From the NCBI GenBank assembly GCA_918797485.1, contig CAKKNE010000001.1, forward strand, positions 3,224,001 through 3,288,000: a DNA stretch of 64,000 nucleotides. The letters run 5' to 3'. Positions 4,191 to 60,000 of this stretch are shown here, in pieces. Position numbers and translations under genes: made by a program. Under the pieces are notes generated by a model. The model was not told where the DNA came from. It made no database searches and saw only the letters and a program-made list of their open reading frames with translations. The DNA is from Pelagomonas calceolata (Eukaryota). Every line of letters begins with the position of its first letter. Position 1 is the first letter of the stretch.

Positions 4191-5456
4191 TTAAGTAGGC
4201 TTCTTCCCGAACCCCATCAGCGCCGACGCCTGGGATGCGGCGGCCGACGCCGTCGAGACGGCGCCCCCGACGGCGGCTTGCGCGGCGGCCTTTCGCTTCG
4301 CGGGGTCGCGCGCGGCGTCGAACGCGGCGCGCGCGCCCTTCTGGGCCATCTCCTGCGCTAACGCTGCGCGGTCGGCCATCGACGGCTCCGGGTCCAACTC
4401 CTCCGAGTACTCCGCGAGTTCGATGGTCCTCGACCTGTGTGGAAGTCAAAATTCGGGCGCCCCACGCCATCGACGCGATGTTGCCTCCATACCTAACTCG
4501 CTGGTTGATTTCCACGCAGGTCGCGACCCGTCGCGGAAGTCGGCCAGGCCCGCCTTGCCGGCGACCGCCGCTTCCGTGTCGACCAAGGAAGACACGGCCG
4601 CGCCGACGGGCAGCATCGACGCTCCTGGGACGCCGCTACACAAATACACGAACAGGGCCTGGGCCGCCGTCTCCACGACCTGTGCGGAAAGCAAGATCTC
4701 ACGACGCCTTCGTGCTGAATCGTCGCGTCGTCCTCCACTGCTCGATGGCGTGGCGATGCCGGTTCCTCACCGCTCGACCGTGCACCCGACGCACTGGTTG
4801 ATTTCCACACAGTCCACGACCGTACTCATGGCCCCCGCGGCGACCGCCTCGGCCTTGGTCCCGGCCATAGCATACAAAACACGAGCTCTTGTTTGAGGTA
4901 GGCTCAAGTCGTGCCCGCGCAACGCACAGACCAACAGCGTCCCCCGCAGCAACTTCCAAAGGGGGGCAATAATAGCAGAACACGCTCCTAAACCAGGCAC
5001 GAAGGCCACCAAGAATTGAACCGTATCTTCAGACATGGTCGTCGCGAAGGCCTGCCCGCAGCACCGGTCGGCGTCGCCCGCGAAGTTCCTCAGTAGTTTA
5101 TTCCGCCTTGCTTTTGTACTGCGGAAGCCCTTTGGCAGGCCGTCGACGGCCAACGCGACGAGCGTCATCAACGATGCGACGAATTGCTCCTTGCCCACGT
5201 TGGCCTTGGTCTTCTCCGGCGGCGGCGTCGGGTTCTTCCGCTCCTGCTGCCCCCGGATGCTCGCCTGCAGCTTCGTCGCGGCCCGTCGCTGTTCTTGCTC
5301 GTACGCGGCGATGGCCTCCTTCGTCGTCGTGCCGTTCGACGCCGATGCGTCGAACGCCTTCTGCGCGTCGTCGGTCCAGGCGTCGCCCGCGTAGGCCTTG
5401 GCCTCGTCGAGCGTGACAGTGTCGGGGAGTGCTCCTGCGGAGGCACCGGCACCCAT
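4191..5456 (-). CDS. IQ-motif-containing protein, 3 exons (5456-4821, 4679-4528, 4434-4191)
   Basis: AATKLQASIRGQQERK is an IQ motif. Removing two introner introns joins three ORFs in frame (AMST|VVETAA; FRDG|SRTIEL), giving 344 codons. Confidence 0.7.
4435..4519 (-). mobile_element. Introner family A (intron 4435-4527)
   Basis: TIR ctgtgtggaagtcaa/ttgatttccacgcag; flanking 8-mers tcctcgac/gtcgcgac; splicing restores frame. Confidence 0.85.
4680..4812 (-). mobile_element. Introner family A (intron 4680-4820)
   Basis: TIR ctgtgcggaaa/tttccacacag; perfect 8-bp TSD tccacgac at 4672-4679 and 4813-4820. Confidence 0.95.
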
Positions 5457-5729
5457 GGGGCAGCCTCTCTATGCTACGCTTGTCGTGCGACGGCGGCGAG
5501 GCAGGCCTTGAATCTTCTGTGCGTACGCGTTGTGCCGTAGCGCCCTTCGATAGCAAAGAGGCACTAGCCTTTGTACGGTTTGCTCGGCCACAGCGTTCCC
5601 AACTGTACGGCGCACGCCACACGGGGCAGCGCCAGAACGCATTCGTTCGTTTCCAAACGATCCGCAGTCCCAAGCGAAGCGGTCCAGTAGAGCGGGCAGC
5701 CCAGCCTGCAACCGGGCAGCCTCGACACC

Positions 5730-11382: not shown

Positions 11383-13500
11383 CTACGCGGCCTCGGGCGG
11401 CGACTCGCTCACCTGGCGCCGCCGCGCCTGCGGCGACGCGCACGACGAGAGCAGCGCGGACACCTTGTGCGGCAGCTGGACCCGCGGCGCGGGCAACCCC
11501 CAGGCCGCGTGGTACTCCTGGCCGTTCGGCGACACGAACTCGCAGCGGCCCCTTCTCAGGTTGGGGTCGTAGAAGTCGTCTTCCGGTCGCGCAGTCCCTG
11601 GCAATTGCAAGGCCAGATCGTCACTCATCGGCACCGCAACACCGGGATTCTGGGCCATCTGGGCCTTGTAGTGGGCGTGCAGCGGCGACAGGCCGCCGGG
11701 GCCGCCGTAGCCGCCAACGGGCGTTTTTCCGATCGGTCCAGAAGGCGTCAGGCCCGTCCGCCCCGACGAGAACAGCTCCGAGATGCCGTTCTTCGCGGGA
11801 CTAAACCCGTCCATGTCGCTCAGAGGCGTGCCGTTCGGACCTTTTAATGGAGCGTCCATGTTCATGTCCAATGCATCGAAGGAGACGTCGAGCGCGTCGC
11901 CGTCGTCCGTCTTGAGCGCGTCTTCCGCGTCGTCGTCGTCCAATGCTAATAGAGCGTCGCCGTCGAAGTCGAGGGCGCCGCCGCCCTTCATCTGTGTGTT
12001 TATCGTGTGAGTCGCGGCCGTAGGACGCTCTCGATCGTCTCGACGCGGCGCCGCGTCGATGGCGTGGGGGCGCACGCCATCGCCGTGAGTCGAACGAACA
12101 AGGACGCTCGCGACGAGGCCCCACAAGTAAAAAAGGACGCCGCAACACACCCCGAACAGGTCGAGCATCGTCGAGGGCGAGTCCTGGCCCGCCGGCATGG
12201 AATTAGAGCGATCTAAAGCGGCGGACGCGTCGGCCGCGGTCTTCACCCGAGTTCTAGTCTTCGGCTGCGGCGCGCTTGAGGAGCGCGTCGTCCGTGATGG
12301 CGCAGGAACTGCTGATGAAGACGCCACGGCTCGCTTCGAGCTACGCTGCTTGTCGGAGGGTTCTCGTTCATCTCTATCTATCGCCTCCATTTGTGTGCGA
12401 GCCCGCGCGATCGTCGCCGTGTCCTCGTCCTGCGGCGGGCCCTTGCCGAACATGGCCGACTTCTTCCGGCGAAAAGCCGAATTCCAGCGGTTCTTCACGG
12501 CGTTCTCCGCCCTTCCAGGGAGTAATTTGGCGATCTTCGTCCAGGCGTTGCCCCAGCGCTGCTGCGCTTCGGCTAGTATGGTGTCCTCCTCGTGCGTCCA
12601 GCCGCCCTTCTTCAGGTTCGGGTCGAGGTGGTTCGTCCAGCGCTCGCGGCACTGCTTGCCGATCCTTCCCGGGATTCTCTCGGCGATCTGCATCCAGGTC
12701 AGGCCGCCCTCGTTCATGCATGCGATAATGATCTTGTCCTCCTCCTCCGTGAAGGCGCCCTTCACGAGGCCGGCCCTGAGTACTTTCTGCCATCGATGCA
12801 AGCATTGCACATCACTCCGCCCGTGGCCCGCGAGGTGCTGTTCCGCTATTCTCTTCCAATCATGAGTCCCAACAGCTTTCACGGCTAAACAAAGCTTCTC
12901 GTCCTCCTGCTTCGTCCACCGCCGCTTCAACCCCCCTTCCCGCAAGCAATCCACAATCACCTGCGCGGCGCATTTCACTCAAATTCGACAAAGAAACGAC
13001 CCACGACCTCGTGCGATGGACACGAGTCGCATCGAATGAAGGCACCGTACGGGACGCCGAGATCGCACCTTGTCTTCTTTCTCGCAAAAAGCTCCCTTGA
13101 CCAGGCCAGGCCTCAAAACTTTCTGCCACCGGTGCATACACTGCGCGTCACTGAGATCGTGGCCCCGCATGTACACGGTCGCGATGGTCTTCCAGTCGCC
13201 GAGGCCGACGGCTTTCACCGCTGCACACAACTTTTCGTCTTCGTGCTTCGACCATCGTCTCTTGGTACTGAGAGCTGCCGCTTTCGACGTGCCTCGCGTC
13301 TGCGCGGGCTGGGGCGCCTGGTAGTAGACCGGTTGGGGCGCAGTGGCCTTCTTCTTTTTGGTAGGCGGCTTTCTATAGACGTCGGCCATCTCCGCGTCGG
13401 GCGGCGGCGGCGGCTGGAGCAGGGGCACGGCGCCCGGCGGCAATACACTGCCGGGTGGCAGGACTTGCGGGCCCGCCGCCGGGTCGAGGCAGAAGAACAT
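11383..13500 (-). CDS. 3R-MYB (c-Myb-like) transcription factor with duplicated R1; introns 12961-13068 and 11992-12150
   Basis: Myb repeats RWTKQEDEKL...QCLHRWQKVL, IPGRIGKQCRERWTNHL and LPGRAENAVKNRWNS. The spliced CDS is 617 codons in frame. Confidence 0.9.
12961..13068 (-). mobile_element. Introner family B
   Basis: gtgcgatctcggcgtccc...gactcgtgtccatc...gaggtcgtggg...tttctt...gaatttgag...cgcgcag, shared with 17 other introns. Confidence 0.85.
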
Positions 13501-18627: not shown

Positions 18628-19936
18628 CTACTTCTCCGCCTTCTCCTTGTCGCGCGAGCGCGAGCGCGAGCGGTCCTTCTCCTTGCCCTTGTCGCGCGAG
18701 CGGCTGCGCGAGCGGCTGCGCGAGCGCGAGCCCTTGCCGTCGTCGCTCGACGACACGCTCTCGCCGCGCTCCTGGCGCTCGCGCTTCTCGCGCGCCTTGC
18801 GCCACTTCTTCTTGTAGCGCTTCTCGAGGTCCTTGCGGAGCGAGCGCGACGGCGTCCGGATGTGCATGAAGTTGCAGTAGCCGCCGCGCGTGCACACGGC
18901 CTCGTCGTACTGGCGGCAGCGCGCCTCGCGGAAGTCCGTCACGGGCGAGAACTCGCAGACGAGCGGCCGGCCCGCGTAGAAGCGGCCGAAGAGCGCCTTG
19001 AGCGCCGCGTCCGAGTGCTCCTCGTCGGCGAACTTGCAGTAGACGTTGCCGACCATGTGGTCGCCGAGGTTCTCGCAAACGTTGAGCTCCTCGATCTCGC
19101 CGTAGCCGGCGAGCTCGTCGTAGACCTCCTCGTAGAACTCGTCGAACTCCTCCTGCACCTTCTTCGGGTCGAGCTGCGACGGGTCGCCGCCGGCCGCCGC
19201 GATCTGCGACCTGAGTGCAAATCAAAATTTTACGGCGCGTTCGTCCTGAATCGTCGCGTCGTCCTCCACGCCATCGACGCGACGCCTGCTCGATGGCGTG
19301 GCGATGCCGGTTCCTCACCGCTCGACGGAGCCAGCGCGGCCGCGTCATCGCCGAGAAATGTGCACCCGACGCACTGGTTGATTTCCACACAGTCCGCGAC
19401 GCCGGGTTCTGGTACATGTGCTGCACGATCATCGTCTGCGAGAAGGGCGGCTTGTGGTGCTGGCGCGAGCACCGGTCGCCGTGGCGGCACGCGCCGATCT
19501 TGAAGTAGAAGGGGCAGTTCACCTTGTCCTCCTCCGTGCCGTGGATGCGGGCGAGATGCGTCGCGCCGCCGCGCGCGCCGCCCAGCTCGCGGTCGCGCCA
19601 GTTGCGGCCCGCGTCCCGCGACGAGTCGTAGCGGCTGCCGCCGTAGCCGCCGCCGCCGCCGCCGCCTCCGTACCCACCTCCTCGCGGCGGACCGCCTCCG
19701 CCGTAGCCACCTCCACCGCCGCCTCCGTAGCGGCCGCCGCCACCCCCTCCGTAGCGGTCCCCGCCCCCGCCTCCGCCTCTATAAGCGTCGTTCGAGCCGT
19801 AGCCTCCTTGGCCGCCGCGGTAACCGCCGCCTCCGCCTCCGTAGCGATCACCGCCTCCGCCGCCGTAGCGATCCCCGCCGCCGCCCCGTCGGTCGTCGTA
19901 CCGGCCGCCGCCGCCTCCGCCGCCGTAGTGCGACAT
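18628..19936 (-). CDS. U2AF1: Splicing factor U2AF small subunit; one intron 19211-19400
   Basis: [56 protein letters not shown]...[11 protein letters not shown] and an RS tail; 373 codons after splicing. Confidence 0.95.
19211..19392 (-). mobile_element. Introner family A (intron 19211-19400)
   Basis: TIR ctgagtgcaaatcaa/ttgatttccacacag; TSD tctgcgac/tccgcgac (7/8); interior nearly collinear with 4680-4812. Confidence 0.95.
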
Positions 19937-22680: not shown

Positions 22681-23446
22681 ATGAAGCTCCTCATCGCCCT
22701 CGCGCTCGCCGCCGCGCCGTCCGCCCTCGCGATGGCGCCCTACGTCCCGTCCGAATTGAACGGGTGCGACGAACCCTGCGCGGATGTCGTTACTATCGAC
22801 TCGCCGTCCTTCCCCACGATTGAATCCGGTACTTGTTACGTATTTGACGGCATGTTCCCCTCCGGAGGGATAGGAGTCCCCGACGGGGTCAACTGTGTGA
22901 AGATCACGGTCCCGAGCGACTCCGGCCTAGTCTTCATTTCCGCACACATCCCGCGTCCTACTTGCCCCGCGCCCCGCGAAACGCTGAGACGCGGCGCGCG
23001 CAGGTCTTCGGCGACAACGCGGAGATCGTCAACGCCGGCAAGGTAATTTCCATCTTCGCGCGCCTCCCGCGTCTATTGCTTTTTGCTCTGCGAGGCCTTC
23101 AACCACGCAGGTCCAACCCACAGTTGACGGAACGAAGATCACGAACACCGGCACCATGAGCGACGGCAACCCCGTCCAGATCGCAGCGCGCCCCCTGCGT
23201 CCCTCCGCCTCCGAAGGGCCTCGACGACGCCTCCCTCGCGCGCAGGTCTTCTCGCCTAGTGGAGCCGAGATCACGGTGAGTGAGCCGGGCAAAGCGCAGA
23301 TCTTCGTGCGCGACCCGCGTCCGTTGAGCCCGCCGCGCGAAAGCGAAGAATTCGAAACGCAGGCCAATGGTGGAACCGACATCATCTTCAAGTGCTACGG
23401 TGCGGACGCGACGGCGACGCCCTCGACGCCCGCGCTCTGCCCCTAG
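22681..23446 (+). CDS. Small secreted protein, 5 exons (22681-22929, 23004-23042, 23111-23173, 23246-23305, 23363-23446)
   Basis: Signal peptide MKLLIALALAAAPSALA. Four GT...CAG phase-0 introns give a continuous frame to TAG 23446. An upstream signal-like ORF start at 22364 may be a further exon. Confidence 0.55.
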
Positions 23447-29500: not shown

Positions 29501-32500
29501 CGCGGCGGGGTTCAGGCGGTGCCGCGCGACCCTCCGACATAAAGCGGGATCGTCGCCGCCCCCCAAGCCTTGTAACTGCTCCGGCTCCTCGTGCGTCCGC
29601 GTCATCTCCTTGCCGCAGTCCAAACACCGCACGCCCTTCCCATATTTATCGCCCCAGGCCTTGGCCCGCAGATGCTGGCAGAAGCCCTCGCGTGAGGGCC
29701 CCTCGAAGAGCCGAATCGCCCGGTCAAAGTTCGGGATCAGGCCGATCTTCTCCCGCATGTGGGCGCGCCTAGCAGCTCGGAGTTTCGCCTTCTCCTTCTC
29801 CTCTTTCCGCTGTCGCGCGCGCTCCTCCGCTCTCGCACGACGCGCGGCATCATCATCGGCCTTGCGCATGGCCGCGACGTCCCGCAGCCGCTGCTCGCCC
29901 GCTTGGCGCCACTGCCGTTCTTCGGCACCGACGAGCGCCGCCACCTGTGCGGAACGACTGCGTGAGCATCGTATTCACTGGAAACGGTCCGAAACGGCTC
30001 AAATTTGGACCAGAGACCACCCATCGCCTTCTCTGATGGACACGAGTCGCGTCGACGGCGTAAAACCTTCGTAGAATCACGGGACGCCGCGTCCGACGTA
30101 GTCGTCCATCCAGCGCTGCTCGGCCTCGGCGTGCGCGCTCCGTTGCAACATCATGATCCGCGCTTTTTTTTGGATGTCGGCCCTACTCAAAGGTATGAGC
30201 GGCGGCGGTTTCAGTAACTCGCGCATCTCGGCGTCGGTCATCTTCTTGTTGAGGCCCGCCTGCGTGGGATCGTGTCAAGTTCAAGTTCAAGTTCAAGTTC
30301 AACAAACCTTCTTCTCGAGTCTCTTGAGTTTCTTTCTCTCTTTCTCCTCCTTCTTCGCCAGATCGAGGGCGGCCTGCGACTCCGCGTTCGTCATCGAGTC
30401 GATCTGCCTCTTGAGGAGCTTTCTTTCTTTAAATTTGTAGAAGGGCCTGCGCGGAGCGTCTCCCGTCGAACGCGGTCCGAACGGCCTCGTCTGATGGACA
30501 CAAGTTGATGGCGTGACTCCACACGACGGGACGCCGCGAGCGGACGTCTTCTTGAGGCGCTCCTTCATGGGCGTGAGCGCGTCGTTGTCGTCGTCGGACC
30601 GCGTCGAGCGCTTCGACGACGGCCGCGAGCCGGGCCTCGAGCCCGGCGTACCAGGTCGGGACCCGTCTTGTGAGCCTGGAGTGCCCGGCTTGCCCGGAGT
30701 ACCGGCTTCGTGGTCGCTCTCGGCCTCGCTGTCGACCTGTGTGGCCAGCAACCAGTGAGTCTCGGCGAGCGGTGAGGATCCGGCACCACCACGCCATCGA
30801 GCAGGCGTCGCGTCGACGGCGTGGACACGGCTGCCGACCTCGGGCGGCGGCCCCGGCTTCTTGATGAAGAACGAGATGGGCGTTAAACCGGCGCGCATCT
30901 CCTCGACGACGTTCTTGGCCCGCATCTTCGTCAATGTTTTGACGGCGCGCGTCGTCATGAGGCCCGCGGCCTCGGCGTAGGCCTCTCTCCGTTTTCTCTT
31001 GACCTGCGCGGAGCCTCAAACTCGAGAAAGAAACCACCCACGTCATCGTGAGATGGTCACGGGTCGTATCAGTGAAGTGAAGGCGCCTCAACACCTCAAA
31101 ACGCGGAGGTCGCACGGCGTCCCTTTTCGCTGCCTCGAACTTCGCCGTGTCCTCGCGCTCCTTGGCTTCGCGCTTCAAGCGGCGGTTGTCGACTTCGACG
31201 AGCGCGAGATACGCTCTCGCGTCCGCCTGTGTGGAGCGACTCGGTCCGAACGGCCCCAGAATCGGAAAAGAGACCACCCACACCATCGTGAGGTGGCCAC
31301 GAGTCGCATCGACGGCGTGAAGACACGGTATCGCACAATAGCAGCCTCCGCCTCGTTGTGCTCCCAGATCTTTCTAGTTTCGGGATCGGGCGCGACGCGC
31401 TGCGAAATGTAGTAGCGACACTCGTCGAGATCGAGCCAGTACGGCGGCCCGGCCATGCGCTCCATGTCGTCCACCGGTTGCACTTCGTAGCGGATGCGGC
31501 ACGTGACGCCTGCGCGCGAACGGCCTCGAAATCCAAAAAAAGACCACCCCCGGCCTCGTGAGATGGCCACGAGTCCCGGCAACGAAGTGAAGGCCCCGCA
31601 ACACCGCAGCATACCGCCTTCCAACCACTGCACGTCGACGCGGTTCACGCGCATGTGCTTCCACGTATTGTTGTCTTCGTCGAAGACCTCCAACGAGCAC
31701 CCGGCGCACTTCTTCGCGGCCTCGACCTTCGGTTTCAGGGCTTCTCTTTTACGTCTGAGATATTTTTTGAGCGACTGTCGGACTCGACGAGCATGAGCTT
31801 CTTGCTTCTTTTGCTGAGCGAGTTCTTCCTGCGTGGGAGGTTTCAGGGGCGTTTGAGAAGCCACACGAGAACGTCGGCGTCGTCTTGTACCGGTCTCCTC
31901 GGCGAAGCCCTTCTCGACCTGCGTGGCCATCGACCGGTGAGTCAGGCTATCTTCGCGTCGACGGCGTCTGAGAGCGTCGTCGAGCCTCGTCGAGCCTCGT
32001 CGAGCCTCGTCGAGCCTCCACGCCATCGACGCGACGCGTTCCTCGCTTCTTGCCGAGTGAGAGCGGTCGCGTTTGCTATCTCGGCACCGCGGCCCTGGTT
32101 TCGGCTCAAACTTGGACACGACGTCCCTCTGCTACACGCGACCGCGTGGGGCGAGCAGCACCCCACTCCGACCGCGAGAGACCCGAGATTGAAGTACAAC
32201 TTGAAGTTTTCGACACTGGTCTCGACGTCGTCCTGGGCCGCCTGGTCGGCCACTTGCATCAACTCGTCCCTCAACAACCTTCTGAAAGTACCAATATGAT
32301 GCCGCTGCGGCGTCGCGTGCAGACTATCGCTATCCCAGTAGCCCGGCGGCGCTTGCTGCGCGGAAACGACTCGGTCTCGACACGCGCTCAAAGTCGACAA
32401 AGAAACCACCCACGGCCATCGCTCCCGGAGACGACGCACGGTGTGAAGGCACCACTTCAAAACGCGGCGAGCGCACGCCGAACTTCGCGGCCTTCGCCGC

Positions 32501-35881: not shown

Positions 35882-36089
35882 GGTTTATGACGGCGGGGGC
35901 CCGGTCCGGGCTGCCTACGGCTCAAGCCTAGCTCTGGGCGGCTGCCGGGCGGACGGCGGTGGGGTGCTGCCCGGCGTGCGGTAGCCGCCACGCGTCGACG
36001 TCGGGAGCCCGCGACCAGCACGTCGGGGTCCGGTGAGCCGGCGGGCGTAGCCTGCCCCGAGCAAAGCTGAGCGCTGGGTTTGCTTTTGG

Positions 36090-39926: not shown

Positions 39927-42900
39927 ATGGCTACGCGAGATGCCAACCGCGAAACGACGAGCGACCCTCTTCGCCGACCGATCCCTCCCCGCGAACAACA
40001 CACGGTTATTAGCAGGCAGCCCACTAAAAAACAAAAACACATCTCCGGCAGCGCCAGCGCTATCCAAATACGAGCGGAGGCGGCGAGGCGTGCCGCCAAA
40101 GGGCAGCCGGCCATGGGGCAGCCCGCAAAAGTGGACGTCGAGGCGCCGGTGCCGGAGCTGAAGTCGCCGACGCTGCGCACGAGGGACACAGTGGGGCTGC
40201 GGGACGCGCTGCTGGCCCGGAAGGCGAAAAAGCTCCAGGCGACGCGGCTGGGGTTCCTGTTCTTGTATATGACGCTACTCTTCGGGGTCTGGATTCTCGC
40301 GTTGCGGCACAACCGCATCTCGCTCTATGAGCTCGAGTTCAATCCCCACAAACCGTTGGGGGTCGTGTTGAAAGGCTGCGATCTCGTGGTCAAGCGCGGG
40401 CCTGACGCGCGGGTGCGCCTCAAGACGCACCTCTCGAGCGCGGCGTCAAGCACAGTGCATAAATCAAATTGTCGGCGCGTCTCGCACTCGACGCACGGGT
40501 TGATTTCCACACAGGTCGGCGAGCATCCAGATGCGCAGCGGCAAGCTCGAACGGATTACGGCGACGAACTCGTTACCAGGCGGCTGCGACGCGTCGCCCG
40601 GTCTAAGGTGCGCGCCGATCTGCAAGCTCACGGTTGAAGTACCCCATGCGAAGGAGATCGTAAGGTTAGATATTAATCAAGATGCGGCCGACGAGGCGGA
40701 CCACGTGAAGGTGGTCCTCAAAGATGTTAAAATCAAAGATTGTAGGGTGAACGGGCCGCGCGTCGAGCTCGTCGTCAAGGACACAATACATGAGTCGATA
40801 CTGAAGGCGCAATTGGAGTCCGGCACGATCCGGGCGTCGCATGTGCGAGGCGGCGCGTTGTTCCTCAAAAGCGCCCGAGGCAACATCTACGTCGACGATG
40901 AATCCACGGATAGCTGGGATTTGAATTGGCGCGCCGGTTCTAACCAAGCCTGCTTCGAGACCTTCGGGAGCGGTGCGCGCGACGCCCTGTCCATCGACTA
41001 TTCTGGCAGAACGGTGGACGGAGTCTTGACCTGTGTGGAAATCAAATTGTCGCGGCGCGTCTCCGCCACTGCTGAATCATGGCCTTACGCCATCGACGCG
41101 ACGCCACCTCGACGGCGTGGCGGTGTGGGTCTTACACGACTCGATTCAGTCATCAGGGACGCGTCGTCGCCGAGAAATGACTTAGGCACCCGACACACGG
41201 GTTGATTTCCACACAGGTCTGGACCCCGAAGCAGGTCTTCTCGAACTCCACAACAGGCTCATGGTGGACGGACTGCAACCCCCAATCATTGTGGTGGAAG
41301 ACGCAGGTCTTCGCGACCTACGACGGCGACGCGGACGGGAGAATCACGAAGGACGAGTTCCGGGAAGGCTACGAGAAATTGGGAAGGTGCTGCGGCGGCG
41401 GCTGCCCCCAGTGGTCCTGGTGCGGCGTCTTGGAGGACGAGGTGTTTCCTTCCGTAGATAACACTGGAACACTGTTGATGGGCAGCAACGTGGTCACGTC
41501 CGGATCATTCCTCGACAAACTGGAGGGGATGGGCGACACTACATTAATTCCGGGGTGTCACAGAGTAGCCACTGTTGAAGATAGTACTACTAGACGAAGT
41601 GTTACGCTATGGAGCGACGCGGGCGAAGTTCGCTTCACGAAAGGTGTTGATAGGACTACTGACGACCACGGCGTCTTTCGGGATACGGGCCAACCAGACG
41701 GTTTAAGACTGGCGAAGTACGATAGTGATGCCTTAATTAGTGAAATACGAGACGTCTATGGCGCCAATGACGCGGAGGGCGACGTGCTGGTCGTTATTGA
41801 TGTGGTCTCCTCACCAGGTGTCCCGGAGCAGCGCTGGATTTATGCTACTAGAAAGATTTTCCTCGAGATCGACCCCCCGACGCTCCACTTATTATCTTTA
41901 GGACTACTCGTACCGGACATGAAGAGGTATCGAGTGCACTTTACGAACGGTGCAATCTCGGCGTTTTGAGGTGTAGAGGCGCCTTCACGCCGTCGACGCG
42001 CGTCGTCTCCATCAGATGAGGTCGTGGGAGGTTTCTTTTTCGAGTTTGAGGCCGTTCGGACCGCGTCGAGCGACCGCGATGCTCCACGCAGGCGTCTGTG
42101 GCGATCATAACGCGACAGATGTAAAAACAGCAACGCTGGAGATCTACTCTCAATTATATCAGGCTCTAGTTCCCAGGTTCCAGCAGAGCGGGCTGCGGGG
42201 CATGCTCGTGCGGCTCGAGAGACAAAAAAGAAGAACGCTGCCTGCCTTAGGGAAGATGTGGGCCTACCCCAGTCGCGTGGGCACACTAACGGGAGCCAAC
42301 ACACCGACGGACCCCTACGAGACGCCCTACAACGAGGTGCGGCAGGGGACGCCGCGCACGGCCTTAGTTTTTAGTGCTGCGCTTGGCGTCTTCGTCGCTA
42401 TTTTCAGTACATTGGCCCTGATCAAGGTCGCGACGATACTCGTGGATAATCATGAAAGAAAACAACAGGTAAGACACCAGATGGAGGCGGCCAAGCAATT
42501 AGCTGCTTTGGGTGCGTCGGAACAAGAGATCAAAGCCGCCCTGAGGCCGCCCCCGAAACCGCCTCGCAAGACGGGCTGGAAGCGGTTCTTGCAAGTCCCC
42601 AAAAATCCCTTGGCCAAGCCGCTGCGCCTGTTCACTATTTTTGTGGCCAAGCCCCTGAAGCGGCACTACGTTAATAGTGTGAAAGCGTTTGTGCAGGCCG
42701 AGTGTTTATTGCGACCTGTTCGAGGTGGCGTGGTGGTCGAAGACAAGCCTGCTGATGCGAGCGCACCGGCCCCGGCACCGGGAGAGCAGCTGCGGTCCAT
42801 GCCTGTGTGGAAATCATGACCTTACGCCATCGACGCGACGCCACCGCGATGGACGCTGGTTGATTGCCACACAGGTCCATCCACGCGTCGCTCGACGGCG

Positions 42901-45107
42901 TGAACAACCACAACGTCATGCTGTTTGATTTGAACTCCTGCGCGCTCGAGAACTTCGAATGTCACTACAACAAGTACTGCGCTCAGCAAGATCTGAAACC
43001 GTTCCTGAAAGAGGAGTTGCAGGCCGAGCTCGCCTCGAGATTTGATTGCAAGTTTAAGCGGGTGAGGAGCAGTGCATAAATCATGACCTCCACGCCATCG
43101 ACGCGACGCCGGCTCGACGGCGTGATCGGGTGCACCCGACGCACGGGTCGATGCACGCACAGGTCAGGATGCCCCAAATTTCGGGACTGAAGTGGAGGGA
43201 CCAGACGCTGCGCGACCTCGACGCGTTCCGGGAGCGGAAGCTGAGGATGACTGCAAGTTTGGATGAATTTGGAGATATTGGCGGCGCCGCATCTCTCAAC
43301 ATCGACGGGGCGCTGGTCGCGCGGTTCCTGCGGGAGGAGTGCGAGATCACGGGCCACAACCAGATCGACCAGATCCAAACTTTTGACCGGAGAAGAAGGG
43401 ACGAGGCCGGCCACAAGGGCATTGCCGCCGGACTCTATTCGAGGTTCTACGACTGGATCTGCGTGCAGAACCCGGCGGCGCAGCTGGTGAGCGAGGACGA
43501 CGTGCGCACGGCCTGCCGAAAGATTGTCAGAGGCGACCCCGAAAAGCTGCTCGAGCAGGTCGGGCCCGGTTTAGTGTTCTCGGTGGAAGGCGTCGTCTTC
43601 GCGCAGGGCCTCACGCTGAAAGATGCTGGTAGAGATAAAGCTGTCGGCGCCATTTCCCGAGACGAGTACAAGCGGGAGGCGTTGCTCGTGTTGGGCCACG
43701 TTTGTTTCTTGATGTCCCTGCCTTGTTTGGTGCTTGCGACGTTATTAAAGACGCAGTTCATGTACGCGGAAGCGTTATCTGTCAGACGAGCTTTATCCAA
43801 GTACGACCTCACGTGGCCCATGAAGGAGGATAGGGAGATCAACGCGACGTGCATGTATCTTGGGAGTTTCTGTCTGGCTTATATGGCCCTCGCTTTATTA
43901 CGACTCATCGCGAACTACGCCTTTACTACAAAAGGTAGTAAAGGGGTTATCAAATATATGACGTTGGTCAGCATGTGGCTCTTCGGGTTTGCTTCCACCC
44001 TCATGGTCGTCTTCTTCATCGCGTACTGCGCTATCTTAGCGTGCTGGATTTTGGTCGCGGCCGTGAGGAACGGTGTGGGAATCAACCAGTGCGTCGGGTG
44101 CTCAAACTCGAAAAAGAAACCACCCACGACCTCGCCCGATGGACACGAGTCGCGTCGATGGCGTAGGGCGCCCGAAATTTGATGTCCACGCAGGTCATGA
44201 AGCCCTCGGAGTACCTCAAATACGCGGCGGCCGCCGCGCTCATCATCTTCGTGATCACGACGTCCTGGAAGCAGATGGCCGCCACGGCGCGTGCGATGGA
44301 GGAGACGATCACGAGGGTCATGGACCGCACGCTCAACGAAAGCGTGAAGAAAGCGTCGCGTCCCGTGTCGTCGACGCGGCGTTGTCCCCGTAAGTTGACA
44401 CACAGGCACGAGAAACTCACGCGCGAGAAGATGAACAAGGAGGCCGTGGTCGAAGGCGCGGCGGTCGGCACTGTCGCGGTCGGCGCTGCTGGTTTACGGC
44501 AGCGCAAAGGTGAAACTACAGAAGATGTGGAGGCCGGGGATGATCCAGATGCGCCCTTCGAGATCGAGCGCATCTTCGATCTCGTGGATGAGGACGAGTC
44601 CAATACCCTCGACCGAGAGGAGCTCCGGGAATTATTTTACCTGATGGAGATCTCGATAAGCGAGGAGCAGCTCGAGACGATTTTTGCGTTCGCCGACGCC
44701 GACGGTTCTGGGAGTATAGACATGGGCGAGTTCCGGAGCGCCTGGGCGCGGATCCAGGAGGAGATGGTCGCGGCGGTCATGGAGCAGGTCGGCCTGTCGA
44801 CGACGCAGATCATACTTTTTGTGGCGTGCGTGACGATCGCGGTCTGTGCTCTGTTTGCGTTCATCTTCCTCGCCATCGGCGCATGGCACGACGTACGGGG
44901 GCGGCGTCCTTGGGGTGCCTTCGCTGTCCACCTCCACGCCGTCGACGCGTCCCCGCGCAGGCCGACGGCGCCTTCATCGCGGTGGTGCAGTCCACGTTTA
45001 TTGCCGGTTCTGGGTTCGTCACGCAGATGGCGGCGGCACGCAAATCATCAGATGACGACACGGAGAAGGCCGAGGAGATGGCGGAGGAGTCATTGAAAGA
45101 CGACTGA
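39927..45107 (+). CDS. Large multi-pass membrane protein with EF-hands (~1447 aa), 9 exons
   Basis: Introns 40445-40514, 41023-41216, 41950-42091, 42795-42874, 43062-43162, 44063-44193, 44355-44405 and 44893-44960 leave 1448 codons in frame. EF-hands DGDADGRITKDE, DEDESNTLDREE, DADGSGSIDMGE. Confidence 0.8.
40453..40514 (+). mobile_element. Introner family A, short (intron 40445-40514)
   Basis: cagtgcataaatcaa/ttgatttccacacag; GT donor exactly 8 bp before the left TIR. Confidence 0.85.
41031..41216 (+). mobile_element. Introner family A (intron 41023-41216)
   Basis: Perfect 15-bp TIR ctgtgtggaaatcaa/ttgatttccacacag; TSD gtcttgac/gtctggac. Confidence 0.95.
41950..42091 (+). mobile_element. 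Introner family B
   Basis: gtgcaatctcggcgttttgagg...gaggtcgtgggaggtttctttttcgagtttgaggccgttcggaccgcg...gatgctccacgcag. Confidence 0.9.
42803..42874 (+). mobile_element. Introner family A (intron 42795-42874)
   Basis: TIR ctgtgtggaaatca/tgattgccacacag; TSD gtccatgc/gtccatcc. Confidence 0.9.
43070..43162 (+). mobile_element. Introner family A (intron 43062-43162)
   Basis: Degenerate TIRs; TSD gtgaggag/gtcaggat. Confidence 0.85.
44071..44193 (+). mobile_element. Chimeric introner: family A ends with an inverted family B interior (intron 44063-44193)
   Basis: cggtgtgggaatcaaccagtgcgtcgggtg + ctcaaactcgaaaaagaaaccacccacgacctcg..gatggacacgagtcgcg + tttgatgtccacgcag; TSD gtgaggaa/gtcatgaa. Confidence 0.85.
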
Positions 45108-50234: not shown

Positions 50235-51527
50235 ATGCCCAAAAAAGCAGCACCATCTAACGACGCGCCCGCGAGCGATCAAAAGAAAAAGACGAAAACG
50301 GGCCCGACGCCGGCCGAGAAGCTCGCGGACGAGCTCGACGACCTCATGATCGCCTACCTGAAAGCTTGTAGAGAAACGCCGGACAAGGCGCCGGGCCTCG
50401 AGAAGAAAATGAAAGCGAAGACGGCTCAATTAGCTGCTTTGCAGGATCAAGGGATAGACGCGCACCCGAGCTGGGCCGATGTGGAATAATGCGCCGGCTG
50501 CTCCCGAACCTCGCCGCGAAGATTGATGGAAGGGCCTGCGAGGGCCTTCGCACCAGAGGTTATGCTATTGTGGACGGTTTTTTGGGCGAGACGTGGTGTC
50601 GCCCTGTGTGGAAATCAACCAGTGAGTTAGGTTGTCTCGCCATCGAGCAGAACGTTATGGGGACAATGTCGCGTCGATGGCGTGGAACCTCGACGCTGTC
50701 GAGCAGGCGCAGCTACTGAGGCAGCATCGCGTCGATGGCGTGGGGCGCGCGAAATTTGATGTCCACACAGGTGTCACCTGCTGCGCGACGACATCATCAC
50801 GCTGGCCGAGCGGCGGTTATTGGGGAGAAACGCGACGCATCTCGTGCGGCGAGGCACGACGTCCTTACTGGTCAAGAATAACATCTTCGAGACGGAAATA
50901 GGCGCGCACGAGGAAGCTAGAGTTAATGCGCCGCACCTCGCCACATTATATAACGACAGAACGCTGCGAGAACGACTGAGAGCGTGCGTCGGCGGCCCGT
51001 TACGCTCGCAATCCTTGAAGGTCCAACTGAACCATGGAAGTGGGGGCTGCTTCCCCCTCCACTTCGACGGCGACCCGTCGTTAGATGATCGGGTCATTAC
51101 AGCAGTATTATATCTGAACCCGGACTGGTCCGACGCGGACGGAGGCCACCTCCAACTCGTGCCCTTTCCGGAAACACCGGTGGACGTCGCGCCGCTTTTC
51201 GACCGACTGGTGCTCTTCGCGTCGCACGACACGCTACACCGGGCCCTGCCCGCACAAAACGTGCGCTTCTGCGTGACGCTCTGGTTCTACCGGACACAGC
51301 CCGGCGGCGGCGCCGCGGTTGCTGATGAGACAAAGGCCGAGCGGAGGTTGATGGCGCGCTACGCGTATCGGGAGGCGTGGGGGCGGTCCATCCGCGAGAG
51401 CCATGCGCCGGGCGAGGCGCTCGACGCCGCGTTGTCGGACCACGCCTCCGACACGCTTAAAATCGCCGAGGCTTTGAAGGCGCGCGGCGTCGATTTGGCG
51501 GAGTTGGACGCTATGATTATTAAGTAA
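50235..51527 (+). CDS. 2OG-Fe(II) oxygenase (prolyl-hydroxylase-like); apparent frameshift at 50487-50489 and intron 50596-50770
   Basis: GYAIVDGFLG, FPLHFD, RVITAVLYLNPDW...GGHL, PLFDRLVLF...HRALP...RFCVTLWF. Confidence 0.8.
50604..50770 (+). mobile_element. Introner family A (intron 50596-50770)
   Basis: TIR ctgtgtggaaatcaa/ttgatgtccacacag; TSD gtgtcgcc/gtgtcacc. Confidence 0.95.
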
Positions 51528-51600: not shown

Positions 51601-52833
51601 TCATGATACTTGAGTTCCCAGGGGAAAGTGCCTCTCGTTGGCGTTGGCGCCGCGGAGCGTGGCTCGCGACTGTCGCAGGGCCCCCTCAACCCCCGCTACG
51701 AGCGGGTGCGCGCCGCCGAACACGCGCCGCCCGATCCGTTCAATTTCCTCGAATGTCGTCACGGCCTCGCGGAGATCGTCGAGCGTGGCGGCGTCGTCTT
51801 TGTAGAGCGCCTTACCATAAATCCACCGCATTCTGAGCATGAGATCATGACTCTCTCCGAGAACGCGTCGCGCCACGGGCATCATTTTGCGCAACAGGAC
51901 CTTAGTTTCTTTGAAGCGTTCTAGTTGTCTCAGCGTCGAAGCGTAGTTGTTGGCTGCTAGGAGGGTTTTCCTACTTTCCTCGCCCTCGAGCTTCAACCAA
52001 CCAGAATAGACGTCTCGCCGCATACTTATTGCCTCGTCAAGTCGTCCCAGCGCTCTGTACGACGACGCAAGGTTGCCCTGCATGATAAGTATATTTCCTT
52101 CTGAATCGCCAAGGCGCCGCAGCATAGACATCTCGGCCTCTCTCACGGACAACGCGTCCTCGTGTTGCTTTGCCGCGGATAAACCGTTCCCAAGTAGGTT
52201 CATCGCCAACACCCGAACCCTGTCCGCCTCCGGCAGCCCTACGTACGTTTTCCAGCACGCCCACCCGAGCGCGTGTTGTACGACGCCGTGATACTTTTGC
52301 TCGCACAGGCCGCACGTGTCCCACCGGTTAAAGCGCTCATTCGCCTGGTCGAACAAATTATTCTCCAAAGCCTCCGCGACCAAGATCTTCGCCTGCTTCG
52401 CCAGGCACGACAAGTGCGCGAATCCCGCCCCCCCTCGGCAGGCGCACCCGCGCACGAGGCCCTCTTCCGAACCGTCGTCAAAGCAGATCCAGCACGTCTG
52501 CCCCTTCGTGTCCTCGGCGCACGCATTGACCGCCACCGCCGAGGCCTCTTCGTATTTTTGGTCGGCTTGGTCGGGCAAATACAAAAACCAAGGTGGCGGT
52601 TCCGCCGTCGCGGTGAGCAGTGGTCGCGGTTCCGCTACCAGCTCGGCAGTGGTCGGCGCGAGCAACGAGGCGAGCTGGTAGCGGCGAGCGACGTCGCGCG
52701 GCTCGCGCGCGGCCACCGGCGAGCGGCTTCGGCTGCGCGAGAAGCTCCGAGCAGCCGAGCCTAAACCTTGAGCTGAGCGGCTCCGGGAGCGCCTAATTCG
52801 CTCGCCCTCCCCGGCGGGCTGCCTCTGGTCCAT
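51601..52833 (-). CDS. RING-CH (RINGv) zinc-finger protein with TPR-like helical repeats
   Basis: CWIC...CACRG...HLSCL...CGLC, followed by NLASSYRALGRLDEA / NNYASTL repeats. Confidence 0.85.
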   Translation of the reverse strand: MDQRQPAGEGERIRRSRSRSAQGLGSAARSFSRSRSRSPVAAREPRDVARRYQLASLLAPTTAELVAEPRPLLTATAEPPPWFLYLPDQADQKYEEASAVAVNACAEDTKGQTCWICFDDGSEEGLVRGCACRGGAGFAHLSCLAKQAKILVAEALENNLFDQANERFNRWDTCGLCEQKYHGVVQHALGWACWKTYVGLPEADRVRVLAMNLLGNGLSAAKQHEDALSVREAEMSMLRRLGDSEGNILIMQGNLASSYRALGRLDEAISMRRDVYSGWLKLEGEESRKTLLAANNYASTLRQLERFKETKVLLRKMMPVARRVLGESHDLMLRMRWIYGKALYKDDAATLDDLREAVTTFEEIERIGRRVFGGAHPLVAGVEGALRQSRATLRGANANERHFPLGTQVS

Positions 52834-53000
52834 GTTAGCGACGGACGCGTGGCTTCTGCGCGTAATCCGGCTGCTTTGTGAGCCCCAGCGCGACTGCCGG
52901 GCGGCAGGAAGGCACAGGAGCGGCAGCCCGTGAGAATGCGACCCGCAGAAGGCATCGCAGAAGGCTGTGGGCATTGACCTGTCGGAACTCGATGCTATGC

Positions 53001-53690
53001 CTAAGTAACTTTAAACGACTCGCTCGGCCTCAAGCCGGCAAAGTCCGGGTGCCGCTCGAAGGGCGCCGTGTCGGCGTAGCAGCGGTCGAAGACGGCGTCG
53101 ACCGTCGCCTCGGGCTCGGCGCGCCCCGCCAGCGCCAGCGACAGCGCCGCGCGCCGCCGCACGCACTTGCCGTGATGTGCCATCAAGCCGAAGACGCCTC
53201 TATTAATTTCCTGCGAGAGGTCGCACTCGCCGGACAGCGACGACGCGCGAATCTCGGCACAAGCGTGGTGCGCGCCGCTCTTCCAGTCGACCTTCGCGCG
53301 GCACTGGTCGTACGCGTGCACGAGCTCGTGCACGAGCGTCCTTTCAAAAACCGCCTTGTCCGGCGCGTGCTCGGCGACGACGACGACGCCCGGCGCGTAG
53401 CGCTTCTGCGACCCGTCGTTGACGGCGAAGCCGCCGACCATCTTGTCGCCGAGCGGGCCGCTCCGTTCTACAGAGGCGCACCTGACAAACCCAAAGGGCG
53501 AGCCGACGTCGCAGCCGAGCTTCGCGATCTCATCAAATAAAAAGCGCACGCGCACGTTGCGCGACAGCGCCGCGTCTCGTAAACGGCAGCAGCGCCTCTC
53601 CGCGGCCGTCTCCGGTTCCGGCGCCGGTGCCGGTGCTGGCGCCGCGTCGTCCGTCGTCGTCGTCGAGCGGCGGCGCATGAGGCGACCCAT
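53001..53690 (-). CDS. ATP23: Mitochondrial inner-membrane metalloprotease ATP23 (M76)
   Basis: TLVHELVHAYDQCRAKVDW...HACAEIRASSLSGEC...CVRRRA...CYADTAPF. Confidence 0.92.
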   Translation of the reverse strand: MGRLMRRRSTTTTDDAAPAPAPAPEPETAAERRCCRLRDAALSRNVRVRFLFDEIAKLGCDVGSPFGFVRCASVERSGPLGDKMVGGFAVNDGSQKRYAPGVVVVAEHAPDKAVFERTLVHELVHAYDQCRAKVDWKSGAHHACAEIRASSLSGECDLSQEINRGVFGLMAHHGKCVRRRAALSLALAGRAEPEATVDAVFDRCYADTAPFERHPDFAGLRPSESFKVT

Positions 53691-56319: not shown

Positions 56320-57002
56320 GCTTTAGCGCTGACGCCGAAGCCAGGTGTATGGCGCGGCGAGCGCTCTCGCGGCGCGCGACTGTGATCGTCGGCGCTGCGC
56401 TGACGCGTTTTGCGTTGCAAATGCTCCGGCAAACTCGCGTTCACGCAAGCTTGCCGTCTCGACGGACGGCGTTGGAATTTCCTTCCGAGGAAGCACGTGT
56501 CTTTGACGTCAACCCTGCAAAAACGCTCTCGCGGCGTACAGAGCTCCGTTGTTGATGCCGTAAGCTGCAGAGAGTGTCTTTGGGTTTGATTCTCGCCGTT
56601 GATGCAAAAACTTTAATCTCTAGGGCACGGGAAGATTGCGATTTTGCCCTCCAATGTGCTTTAGGCTGCTTTGCTGCTTTCCCGGTGCCAATCTGAGACT
56701 GCAATGAAACACGCCCAAACGCCATCGTAGACATCCAAGGAGCAAAAGAGCAGCACGAACATTGGTGGGAACTGGTTTGAGCTGACATCGCCGGAAGGAC
56801 CCGCGAGATTCGCGACTCAACGCCTCCCGAACCGCGCCCTGAGGGTCTCAAAGCCTGGAATGAGCAACTTAGATGAGTAAGGTCCGCTCTGAATGATTTT
56901 TGAGATGCCTTGCGATGCCCGGCAGTGGCACCGCCGCGAGGCCGCCCGGCAGAGCTCTCGCCCGGCGATCACTCGTCGCTAGAACTATCGCACACAACAC
57001 CC

Positions 57003-60000
57003 TTACGGCCCCGACCGCTCCCGCTTCGCCGCCCGCAGCGCCAGGGCCTTCTCGCGGTTCTTCGCGATGCGCAGCTGCAGCGCGCGCTGCTTGTTCGCCT
57101 CGGCGCGCGCGCGCTGCGCGTCGCTGAGGGCGTCCGGGGGCGGCGCGGGGACCTCGCGGAGCGGTTCTCGCGGCGCGGCGACGGGCGGTGGCCCGCGCGG
57201 CCCGGCGGGAGACGGCACGGGCGGCCCGCGCGGCACCGGCACGGGCGGCGCACCTCCAGCCGGCACCGGCGGCCCGCGCGGCCGCGGCGGCGGCACGGGC
57301 GGCGCGCCACCGCCAACAGCCGGGACGAGCGGCGGCGGCGGCGGCCGCGCCGGTGCCGCGGGCGCCTCGAGCCACGCGGGCCGCGGCGGCCCTTCTTCCT
57401 CGGGCGGCGACGGGAGCGTGTCCGAGCCCGAGGGCAGCCGGAACTGGGGCGGCGCCGGAGGCGGCGCGACGACGGGCGGCGCGCCACCGGCCGGCACCGG
57501 TGGTCCGCGCGGCCGCGGCGGAGCAACGACGGGCGGCGCGTCGGCGTTGGACTCCTGCGTCCAGTCCCAGGCCGGCGTCGGCGGCGCCGGCGGCGCCTCT
57601 CCGTTCGCCTCCAGGAACCGCTCCATGCGCGCTGCAGCGCCGTCGCCTTCCGGCGCGGGCGCAGGCGGCGGCGCCCGCGGCGATCCAGCAGGAGACGGGT
57701 CGTCGAAGCCCCAGACGTCCTGGTTCGCCTTGGCTTTCGAAGCGCCGCACGCCCCGCAAGTTTCGCCCGTCTGGCCCGCGGCGAAGCACTCGAGGCACAT
57801 CCAGGGCACCTCCTTCTTTCCTTGGGAAGCGGCGTCGAGGCCCCAGACCTGTGTGGAAATCAACCAGTGAGTTAGGTTATTGCGTGGACCTTCGTGAGCC
57901 TCCACGCCATCGAGCCGACGCGGCTAGTCGATGGCGTGGGACGCCCGAAATTTTATTCCACACAGGCCGAGACGTCATTTCCCGCGAAGGCCGCGTGGCG
58001 CGGCATCTTTTTCTGGAAGGCCACGGACGCCAGAGCGCCGTTCTGCGCACTTAACTTCTCGAGATCGTACAGGTCGTCGCAGCGTCGTAAAGCGACAAAG
58101 TCGGCAACAGCCCTGAGTAACGCCGACCGCGACGACGATGCTGGAGGAGCCACTATCTGTCCAGTCCGCGGCGGCGGCCGACCGGCGTGGCCGCTCCGTA
58201 ACGCGCGGCGCCAGCCGTCGGCGAGTCGCGCCTTGTACTGCACCGGGCCCGTCCAGTTTCGTTGTTTAACGACTTGGAGCTGCTTCTCGTTCAACCGCCA
58301 GCTCCTATCTTGTTTCGCCGCAGCGCGAGCTGGATCCACGAGTTTCCTTTTCACTTGCCCGCCGACCTGGGACGAGCGCCACGCGTCTATACTCAACCTT
58401 TTATCGACCCGTCGAGGCCAGGACGGCTGCACCCGTCGAGGTACGAGTCGCTTCGACAGGTCCGTCCGCAACCGCAGTCCTCGTCTGTCTCGTAACGCGT
58501 GAACCACAGCAGCTGAACGTTTCCCAGAACTCTCGAACTTCTTCTCCTCGCCGGGCACCATGAGCAGTACCACTCTACCAGTCCTCTTGCGAGCCGTACG
58601 ACCCATCCTCTGGACCATGCGAATAGGACTTCCAACTTGATCGTAGAAGACACAAACGTCGACGGCGCCGATATCCAGACCTTCCTCCGCAATACAAGTG
58701 GCCACGAGCACATTCGAATCGTTCCGCAGGAACGCCTCGACGGCGTTCTTCTGCGACGACTGCTTCATGCCGTCGCCGCCGCCCTGGCCGACGAAGCGCT
58801 GGACTCTCAACAAATCGCCGGAAGCTCTCGACAACGCGTCGCCGATCTCGTCCACACTTTGCCGCGTGCCCGTGAACACCATGGCTCTAGAAGATTTGTG
58901 GGCCTCCCGCGCGCGCTGGAAGTGGTCCACGAGGAGCTCTCGCAACTTCGTCGTCTTCGGGTGCTCTCCGGACGATCGTAGGGCCTTCAGAGCGTCTAGG
59001 AACTGTGGACTCCCAGCCAGCCGTTGCAACGCCCGATCACCGGGCGGGACACTCTCACTTCGTGACAATTTAGCAGCGACGTCCCGAGCTACCGAACGCA
59101 CGGATTCCAACTTCTCCAAGGCTCCCGTAGTGCCGTAGTGCCGTAGAGCGTCCGCCGCCGACGCGAGCTTGTGCGCGACATGTTTGTCCGCATACGACAC
59201 CCTATTGTTATCGCGACCGGCCTGCAACACCGTATAGGCTCGCAGCGTCGACAAGTCCGTGCTATGTAAAGCGCCCGCATTCTGTAATCTTTTGAGAAAG
59301 GGCTCGGCGACCTTCTGGAGCGCCTCGAGGCCTTTTTTGACAACAGGCCCCTCTTCACAAATGATCTTCTCGATGAGGCGGTGGTGCGTATATTTGGCCA
59401 CGTCGGGGTCGTCCTCGGTCCGCACCTCCACGTGCGCGATCCTGCGCGGGGCGTCGCGGTCGCTCGACTCTGTCCGCCCACGACCTCCTCTCCTGGAGAC
59501 GACGCGCGTCGATGGCGTGAAGGCACCGCAGCACCGCGGGACGCCGAGATCGTACCGCAAGTTGTCGACGACGTCCTGGACCCCGGCCACGTCACTGCCC
59601 GGTGTGGCGGACAATGCCAAGACGCGAAAATGGGCGTGTCTAAAACCCACATGCTTCACCACGGAACAGTAGGCGTACTTCTTGAGCGCGCGATGCGCCT
59701 CGTCCACCACTAACAGTACTACGCGACTAGCATCAAACACGCCTTTCGCCAGGTCGTTCGCCACGGTCTGCGGCGTGCAGTAGAAGACGCGCCGTTTCCT
59801 CCATAACTCTCGTCTACGTTCGACCGGGACGTTGCCGTCGAGCTGAGCCGTGTCTTCCTCGGGGAGACCGACCACGTCGTGGCACGCCTCGACTTGCTGC
59901 GCCACCAAAGGTTTCGTCGGGGCCATGAAAATAATTTGACCGTCGGGGAACCACCGATGATAATTGTACATGAGCACCGCCGCTATTAATGTCTTTCCCA

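What the first reader, a model, noticed from the sequence alone, without database searches (positions are those of the whole stretch)
4427..57973. Intron-generating DNA transposon family A: TSD supplies the donor, TIR supplies the acceptor
Seen: 11 introns in 7 unrelated genes (4435, 4680, 19211, 30737, 40453, 41031, 42803, 43070, 44071, 50604, 57849). Each is bounded by CTGTGTGGAAATCAA-type inverted repeats and 8-bp direct repeats: perfect at 4672/4813, 7/8 at five sites, weaker elsewhere. In every case the GT donor is the first 2 nt of the upstream duplicate and the AG acceptor is the last 2 nt of the TIR. Splicing removes the element plus one duplicate and restores the frame exactly. Because both TIRs end in CAG, copies occur in both orientations relative to transcription (50604 versus 57849). 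Known: this architecture matches the introner elements described in the pelagophyte Aureococcus, and 8-bp TSDs are typical of hAT/P-type transposases. Inference: a non-autonomous element that becomes phenotypically silent by splicing. No transposase is present in this window.
Basis: partly seen in the sequence, partly recalled or inferred. Interest (0 to 1): 0.9.

Follow-up and report, generated by a model that had tools for sequence, protein, structure and literature searches.

The report
Transposon-made introns in a marine alga
Short repeated DNA elements sit inside genes of the alga Pelagomonas calceolata and are spliced out cleanly as introns; they were likely spread by a cut-and-paste transposase, and this kind of element (an introner) is already described in this species.

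Summary
Real, and a known kind. All 11 elements are present (20 TIR matches against 0.6 by chance). They lie in 6 genes, not 7. The host is Pelagomonas calceolata.

In 98 paired copies from marine metagenomes the duplication is 8 bp. All 62 copies with a clear TSD start with GT/GC on one strand, and both orientations occur (29 vs 24; 9 ambiguous). Close relatives lack the intron at three of the window's sites and carry other copies where the window is empty.

Published surveys already list P. calceolata introners (fam2: 340 copies, 202 bp, donor co-opted, acceptor carried, labelled hAT), and the same terminal repeat occurs in Aureococcus. No transposase was found, so the superfamily stays open.

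Details I did not find in print: three interior types share the ends and a 203-bp length. A 14-bp dyad sits about 30 bp inside one end, and half of the shortened copies break there. Copies shrink after insertion. One site appears filled independently in opposite orientations.

The parts
4435..4527 (-). Introner intron, 93 nt: intronic TSD 4520-4527 plus 85-bp element (beta type, L end first); exonic TSD 4427-4434 (5/8)
   Evidence: junction (2 reads and one X7 contig)
4680..4820 (-). Introner intron, 141 nt: TSD 4813-4820 plus 133-bp element (alpha type, L end first); exonic TSD 4672-4679 (8/8); same gene as 4435
   Evidence: junction
19211..19400 (-). Introner intron, 190 nt, in the U2AF35 splicing-factor gene; 182-bp element, 97% identical to the alpha consensus with one 21-bp deletion; TSD 7/8; site appears empty in close relatives
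   Evidence: junction (154 and 102 reads)
30737..30838 (-). Predicted introner intron, 102 nt; 94-bp element, R end first, donor-side TIR mostly deleted; TSD 7/8
31919..32226 (-).
40445..40514 (+). Introner intron, 70 nt (62-bp element, R end first, TSD 4/8) in the EF-hand membrane protein gene; empty in 3 of 3 metagenomic ORFs that span it
41023..41216 (+). Introner intron, 194 nt (186-bp element, R end first, TSD 7/8); same copy present in relative P0427
42795..42874 (+). Introner intron, 80 nt (72-bp element, R end first, TSD 7/8); empty in P0417, P0425 and P0430, filled in P0429
43062..43162 (+). Introner intron, 101 nt (93-bp element, R end first, TSD 6/8); filled in all 7 close metagenomic ORFs that reach it, with differing interiors
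43526..43533 (+). Exonic 8-mer starting with GT, empty in the window and in P0440, filled by family elements in relatives: L end first in P0431, P0433, P0436; R end first in P0428, P0432
   Evidence: read from translated ORFs only
44063..44193 (+). Introner intron, 131 nt (123-bp element, L end first, TSD 6/8) whose interior carries about 73 bp, 86% identical, of the window's second repeat family
50596..50770 (+). Introner intron, 175 nt (167-bp beta element, L end first, TSD 7/8) in a 2OG-Fe(II) oxygenase gene
57849..57973 (-). Introner intron, 125 nt (117-bp beta element, R end first, TSD 6/8) in a DEAD/DEAH helicase gene
   Evidence: indirect RNA support (contig piece starting at 57970)

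Best explanation
These are spliceosomal introns formed by copies of a short inverted-repeat DNA element of Pelagomonas calceolata, likely inserted by a cut-and-paste transposase encoded elsewhere. Shown: each copy sits between 8-bp direct repeats; the intron runs from the GT (or GC) at the start of the upstream repeat to the AG at the end of the element; splicing leaves one repeat and the same protein as in relatives without the insertion; either end can supply the AG. Inferred: the full-length element is 203 bp (a 211-nt intron); insertions that do not land on a GT/GC of the sense strand are removed by selection, which would also explain the scarcity of phase 1; afterwards the intron-side repeat, the donor-side TIR and the interior decay in place while the acceptor end is kept, so copies age into short, ordinary-looking introns. 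The transposase was not found.
For: Junctions at 9 of 11 sites. The spliced 1447-codon gene matches the P. calceolata protein P0422 at 99.9% without a gap across all five sites. A 21-nt end occurs in 121 metagenome stretches from 4 of 64 parts scanned, about 2100 estimated. Of 122 matches, 98 had both ends; a duplication length of 8 gives 82% matches and 42 perfect pairs, against 20-32% for lengths 2-7 and 9-12. 62 of 62 copies with TSD at least 7/8 have GT/GC on one strand, against about 32% expected: 29 L-first, 24 R-first, 9 both. The donor strand is the best coding strand in 41 of 43 scorable copies; phases 0/2/1 are 19/18/4, and 6/5/0 in the window. The R end keeps AG in 34 of 34 copies where it is the acceptor and in 27 of 36 where it is not. 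Empty sites: a single 8-mer in L006 against filled L029; metagenomic ORFs that read through 40453 or 42803 but into another unspliced intron, so they are genomic; U2AF35 read-through on contigs of 22-769 kb. Length rises with TSD match (rho 0.45, 86 of 98 copies; perfect TSD in 17 of 22 full-length and 24 of 64 shorter copies). Aureococcus gene models contain the translated same TIR end.
Against: No transposase or long element was found in the window, beside unpaired ends L061 and L064, in viral contigs or in prokaryote assemblies; no whole genome was available. Junctions can slide within the TSD, so their placement relies on GT-AG. Intron retention could not be measured because reads from other copies pile on the elements (65% of laid reads run on unlike). 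30737 and 31919 have no RNA test, and 4435 has only 2 raw reads. 24 of 64 shortened copies still have a perfect TSD, so some deletions may arise at or before insertion; L066 and L117 share a deletion and several substitutions. Metagenome copies come from an unknown mix of pelagophytes and were selected by an exact 21-nt end.
Confidence: 0.95

Rival explanations
1. The transposase itself prefers targets with G-Y at one edge, so the GT/GC rule is biochemical and not the result of selection.
For: No exception among 62 clear TSDs, although intergenic copies would need no donor. Only 2 of all 98 copies lack GY on both strands.
Against: The GY lies on the coding strand in 41 of 43 scorable copies. 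There is no palindromic target: 9 of 62 have GY on both strands, about 6 expected. It is independent of element orientation (29 vs 24). Nearly all scorable copies lie in coding sequence (43 of 46 score as coding), so intergenic copies were hardly sampled.
Confidence: 0.12
2. The introns spread through RNA (reverse splicing of excised introns), not as DNA transposons.
For: No transposase found; element sequence is abundant in poly(A) RNA.
Against: Locus-specific 8-bp duplications, 15-bp TIRs and insertion in both orientations relative to transcription are not what reverse splicing predicts (established knowledge; PMC9860276 passages contrast the two).
Confidence: 0.03
3. These are old introns that resemble each other through splice signals and low-complexity sequence, with empty sites due to intron loss.
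For: Some copies are short and decayed (40453 TSD 4/8; 30737 nearly without a donor-side TIR); 43070 and 44071 are shared by all close relatives that reach them.
Against: Copy 19211 is 97% identical to the consensus over 182 bp; TSD matches far exceed permutation; relatives carry other full or partial copies at sites empty in the window.
Confidence: 0.01

Closest known systems
Pelagomonas calceolata introners: 956 putative IEs (PMC9481584, Supplementary Note 3); fam2, fam3 and fam39 in PMC12130899 file sd07
   Same: Same species. Intron length peak near 210 bp, GT and GC donors, AG acceptor, TIRs. fam2: 340 copies, 202 bp, 13-bp TIR, gt 281 / gc 42, 'co-opt 5' carry 3''; fam3 and fam39 are 203 bp with TIRs. 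Here: 203-bp mode, 211-nt intron.
   Different: Those rows do not report an 8-bp TSD for fam2. All 11 window copies are shortened (62-186 bp).
Aureococcus anophagefferens introner elements (Huff, Zilberman and Roy 2016; paper not held; described second-hand in bioRxiv 10.1101/2020.10.14.339549 and PMC9860276)
   Same: One splice site carried and the other recruited from the TSD; an 8-nt cut with intron creation in either orientation is described as similar to A. anophagefferens. A 203-bp metagenomic element with the same ends matches A. anophagefferens models AURANDRAFT_34382 (85% over 60 aa) and JL721_3860, including the translated TIR.
   Different: The Aureococcus-matching interior (gamma) is not among the window's 11 copies; it is 42-43% identical in register to alpha (shuffles 25%) and not detectably related to beta.
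hAT superfamily non-autonomous elements (MITEs)
   Same: 8-bp TSD and short TIRs (general knowledge). fam2 is labelled hAT from a RepBase hit to hATv-2N1_EHux. A minority of donor-side ends begin CAGTG (40453, 43070, 31919, L012, L055), like typical hAT ends (recalled).
   Different: The main TIR begins CTG, not (T/C)AG (recalled hAT consensus). No palindromic target preference. No hAT transposase found.
Polarella glacialis introner-like classes 6, 8 and 10 (bioRxiv 10.1101/2020.10.14.339549)
   Same: 8-nt TSD, donor from the TSD, acceptor from the element, either orientation.
   Different: Dinoflagellate host with GA/GT/GC donors; sequence relationship not tested.

Membership tests
Introner (TE-derived spliceosomal intron) | Many similar copies in unrelated genes | tested here: met
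   11 copies in 6 genes; 121 metagenome stretches
Introner (TE-derived spliceosomal intron) | Removed by splicing at GT/GC-AG | tested here: met
Introner (TE-derived spliceosomal intron) | Recent gain: empty orthologous sites | tested here: met
   Read-through ORFs at 40453, 42803 and 19211; DNA empty site L006 against L029
Aureococcus-type introner | 8-bp TSD whose first bases give the donor | tested here: met
Aureococcus-type introner | TIR carries AG at both ends; either orientation | tested here: met
   29 vs 24 in metagenomes; 5 L-first and 6 R-first in the window
Aureococcus-type introner | Same terminal sequence as in A. anophagefferens | tested here: met
   Translated TIR end in two A. 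anophagefferens gene models; seen at protein level only
Aureococcus-type introner | Insertion into nucleosome linkers | not testable with these tools
   needs MNase or methylation maps
P. calceolata fam2 (PMC12130899) | Sequence identity with the published consensus | not testable with these tools
   consensus not found in 14 supplementary files; length, TIR and mechanism agree
hAT superfamily | 8-bp TSD | tested here: met
hAT superfamily | TIR beginning (T/C)AG (recalled consensus) | tested here: not met
   main TIR begins CTG; only a minority end variant begins CAG
hAT superfamily | Cognate hAT transposase with the same ends | tested here: inconclusive
   none in window, L061, L064, viral or prokaryote scans; whole genome not available

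The most novel reading that the evidence does not exclude
This introner lineage has a built-in route of shrinkage. Three interior types share the ends and an exact 203-bp length. A 14-bp dyad centred between nt 30 and 31 from the L end is kept with compensatory changes in all three (18 of 21 Watson-Crick pairs, at most 12 at 162 other centres), and deletions start at its axis in both orientations (42 of 84 shortened copies at nt 30-34, including 8 of 11 in the window). If the dyad is a hairpin or protein site that is cut after insertion, these elements turn themselves into short, immobile, ordinary-looking introns, and many 'ordinary' pelagophyte introns are their remains. The CAGTG end variant would mark a hAT ancestor that gained its acceptor by one base change.
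Probability: 0.3. Interest if true: 0.6.

Novelty: already known. Interest (0 to 1): 0.3.

Why it matters
The mechanism is published, so the finding mainly validates it with RNA and population data in one of the most abundant open-ocean algae. What it adds is a testable system: sites that are filled or empty among wild relatives, one site apparently filled twice in opposite orientations, and a graded series from 203-bp copies to 62-bp relics. That series bears on how transposon-made introns lose their signature, and so on how many old introns began as transposons. The mobilising enzyme is still unknown, and the exact ends given here make a search for it simple.

Tried and rejected
Whole-genome search for copy number and an autonomous element: no genome held. 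Viral contigs: 0 matches to a 19-nt end; 27 matches to a 16-nt end, none paired with a TSD. Prokaryote assemblies: 5 matches, four chance-like and one at a contig edge with the alpha subterminal sequence, probably algal contamination. Unpaired ends L061 and L064: no transposase family in 9 ORFs. Pfam on 60 of 247 window ORFs of 110 aa or more, chosen by codon bias and by hand: no transposase. The TIR-like pair at 22893/22933 was rejected (TSD 0/8). A palindromic GT..AC target site was rejected (9 of 62, about 6 expected). Microhomology at deletion ends: 23% of 158 have 2 nt or more against 18% at random, not a clear signal. Identical deletions as mobile sub-families: most pairs share few or no substitutions, L066/L117 excepted. 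Drift of the intronic TSD toward a better donor: no trend in 34 copies. The search for empty sites among fetched loci gave one (L006); none of the loci was orthologous to the window's sites. Huff 2016 could not be read. Earlier findings of this scan: none returned. The claim that the dyad and deletion hot spot are not in print rests only on searches of an open-access library; Huff 2016 and its supplements, the bioRxiv supplements and figure S3 of PMC9481584 were not seen and may describe them.
Full report
Observation. The 15-nt terminal repeat matches 20 times in the window against 0.6 by chance. Removing the upstream 8-mer and the element opens the frame at all 11.

RNA. Poly(A) reads and contigs show the predicted GT-AG junction at 40445, 41023, 42795, 43062, 44063 and 50596, and on the minus strand at 4435-4527, 4680-4820 and 19211-19400. 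The raw runs X21-X23 are one sample; X7 is a second study. Support for 4435 is thin (2 reads and one contig). Junctions can slide within the duplication, and retention could not be measured because other copies map here.

Corrections. There are 6 host genes, not 7. Five copies lie in one EF-hand protein gene whose spliced frame matches P0422 at 99.9% without a gap. Other hosts include U2AF35, a 2OG-Fe(II) oxygenase and a DEAD/DEAH helicase. Four of 11 donor-side ends have lost the terminal CTG; all acceptor ends keep CAG. A probable twelfth copy lies at 31919-32226. The host is Pelagomonas calceolata: a member of the same protein cluster is so named by NCBI and UniRef.

The family outside the window. 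An exact 21-nt end gave 121 metagenome stretches from 4 of 64 parts scanned. Of 122 matches in 120 loci, 98 had a second end (at least 11 of 15) within 320 nt; 24 were dropped as edge-cut, unpaired or weak. The duplication is 8 bp (82% match, 42 perfect; 20-32% at other lengths). All 62 copies with TSD at least 7/8 begin with GT or GC on one strand: 29 L end first, 24 R end first, 9 both. Of 56 copies with enough flank, 46 had an unambiguous donor strand and 43 scored as coding; in 41 the donor strand was the coding strand, with phases 0/2/1 of 19/18/4. The R end, which the query left free, ends in AG in 34 of 34 copies where it is the acceptor and 27 of 36 where it is not.

Empty and filled sites. 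L006 holds a single 8-mer where L029 holds the element between two (flanks 82-90% alike). Metagenomic ORFs 89-96% identical to the EF-hand protein read through 40453 (P0424, P0426, P0427) and 42803 (P0417, P0425, P0430). Five of these six also run into another unspliced intron, so they are genomic. P0429 is filled at 42803 and P0427 at 41031, both with an intact upstream duplicate where the window's has drifted. 43070 is filled in all 7 close ORFs that reach it and 44071 in all 5. The U2AF35 site reads through on contigs of 22-769 kb, and Aureococcus models have the same residues; that the contig calls are intron-free ORFs is inferred. The window's empty 8-mer at 43526 is filled in relatives, L end first in P0431, P0433 and P0436 and R end first in P0428 and P0432, with different interiors, which suggests independent insertions. 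These readings come from translations, and paralogy is not excluded.

Anatomy. The commonest length is 203 bp (14 of 98; 23 within 199-207). Three interior types share the ends and this length: alpha, beta and gamma. Alpha and gamma are 42-43% identical in register against 25% for shuffles; beta is not detectably related, apart from a shared hairpin motif with alpha. The window's copies are 62-186 bp; by best interior match 5 are alpha, 5 beta and 1 unassigned, and some short ones are ambiguous. Shorter copies have more decayed TSDs (rho 0.45), and the shared insertion at 43070 differs inside between relatives, so shrinkage likely happens in place. A 14-bp dyad centred between nt 30 and 31 from the L end is kept with compensatory changes in alpha, beta and some gamma copies; L085 and L120 lack it. 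Among 84 copies under 197 bp, 42 leave the full-length sequence at nt 30-34, 16 at nt 22-29, 17 at nt 35-60 and 9 later. The R end shows a softer cluster at about 25-39 nt, so a position-based cause (nucleosome edge or protein footprint; 203 = 28 + 147 + 28) is a real rival to the dyad.

Mechanism. Shown: duplication, splice-site use, both orientations, exact restoration, presence/absence. Inferred: cut-and-paste insertion by a transposase acting in trans; loss of unspliceable insertions by selection; decay of everything but the acceptor end. No transposase was found, and the genome could not be searched.

What is known. PMC9481584 (passages and supplement passages seen) reports an intron peak near 210 bp and 956 putative introners with GT/GC, AG and TIRs in P. 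calceolata. PMC9860276 (passages and table rows) lists the species as introner-bearing. PMC12130899 (passages and rows of file sd07) lists 11 families, among them fam2 (340 copies, 202 bp, 13-bp TIR, donor co-opted, acceptor carried, labelled hAT on a RepBase hit) and two 203-bp TIR families. bioRxiv 10.1101/2020.10.14.339549 (passages) describes the 8-nt, either-orientation pattern as like that of A. anophagefferens. Huff 2016 was not held. A gamma element matches two A. anophagefferens gene models including the translated TIR, so the lineage spans both genera. It works like, and is, an Aureococcus-type introner. hAT membership is not established.

Verdict. A real feature, correctly interpreted, already known in kind and very likely in this species and family. 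Interest 0.3. The fixed length, the dyad-linked deletion hot spot and the apparent double insertion are the parts worth following.

Noticed in passing
window 12961-13068, 24400-35900 (many), 41950-42091, 59440-59555: A second repeated intron family with a conserved donor of its own, no TIR pair or 8-bp TSD, seen only in the sense orientation. Two copies are RNA-confirmed. Its acceptor end resembles a decayed family A L end. The 41950 site is empty in P0417, P0426 and P0429 and filled in P0423.
   Followed up: partly
window 44101-44172; L055:5982-6115: Family A ends enclosing an interior like the second family, joined at about nt 31 from the L end: a hybrid or a fourth interior type.
   Followed up: partly
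window 11992-12150, 44893-44960: RNA-confirmed introns without TIRs that still carry the hairpin motif found inside family A; possibly older relics.
   Followed up: no
window 40484-40518 and 19360-19392: About 700-950 poly(A) reads per run carry the element's L end followed by the same foreign exon, with short 5' overhangs: an abundant transcript elsewhere keeps or starts within an element.
   Followed up: no
window 19211-19400: An introner interrupts U2AF35, the factor that recognises the AG acceptor (function from general knowledge).
   Followed up: partly
window 44355-44405: A 51-nt in-frame intron is spliced in RNA (59 and 58 reads) but retained in three database proteins, P0418, P0419 and P0421.
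   Followed up: no
window 41950-41970 and near codon 357 of the EF-hand gene: Relatives P0426 and P0429 carry further family A insertions at places empty in the window.
   Followed up: no
L149:2655-2673: A family A end in a contig of a bacterial MAG, probably algal contamination.
   Followed up: no
window 51604-53010: RING-variant plus TPR gene with many related reads and similar sequence in L069 and L119: a multi-copy gene family.
   Followed up: no
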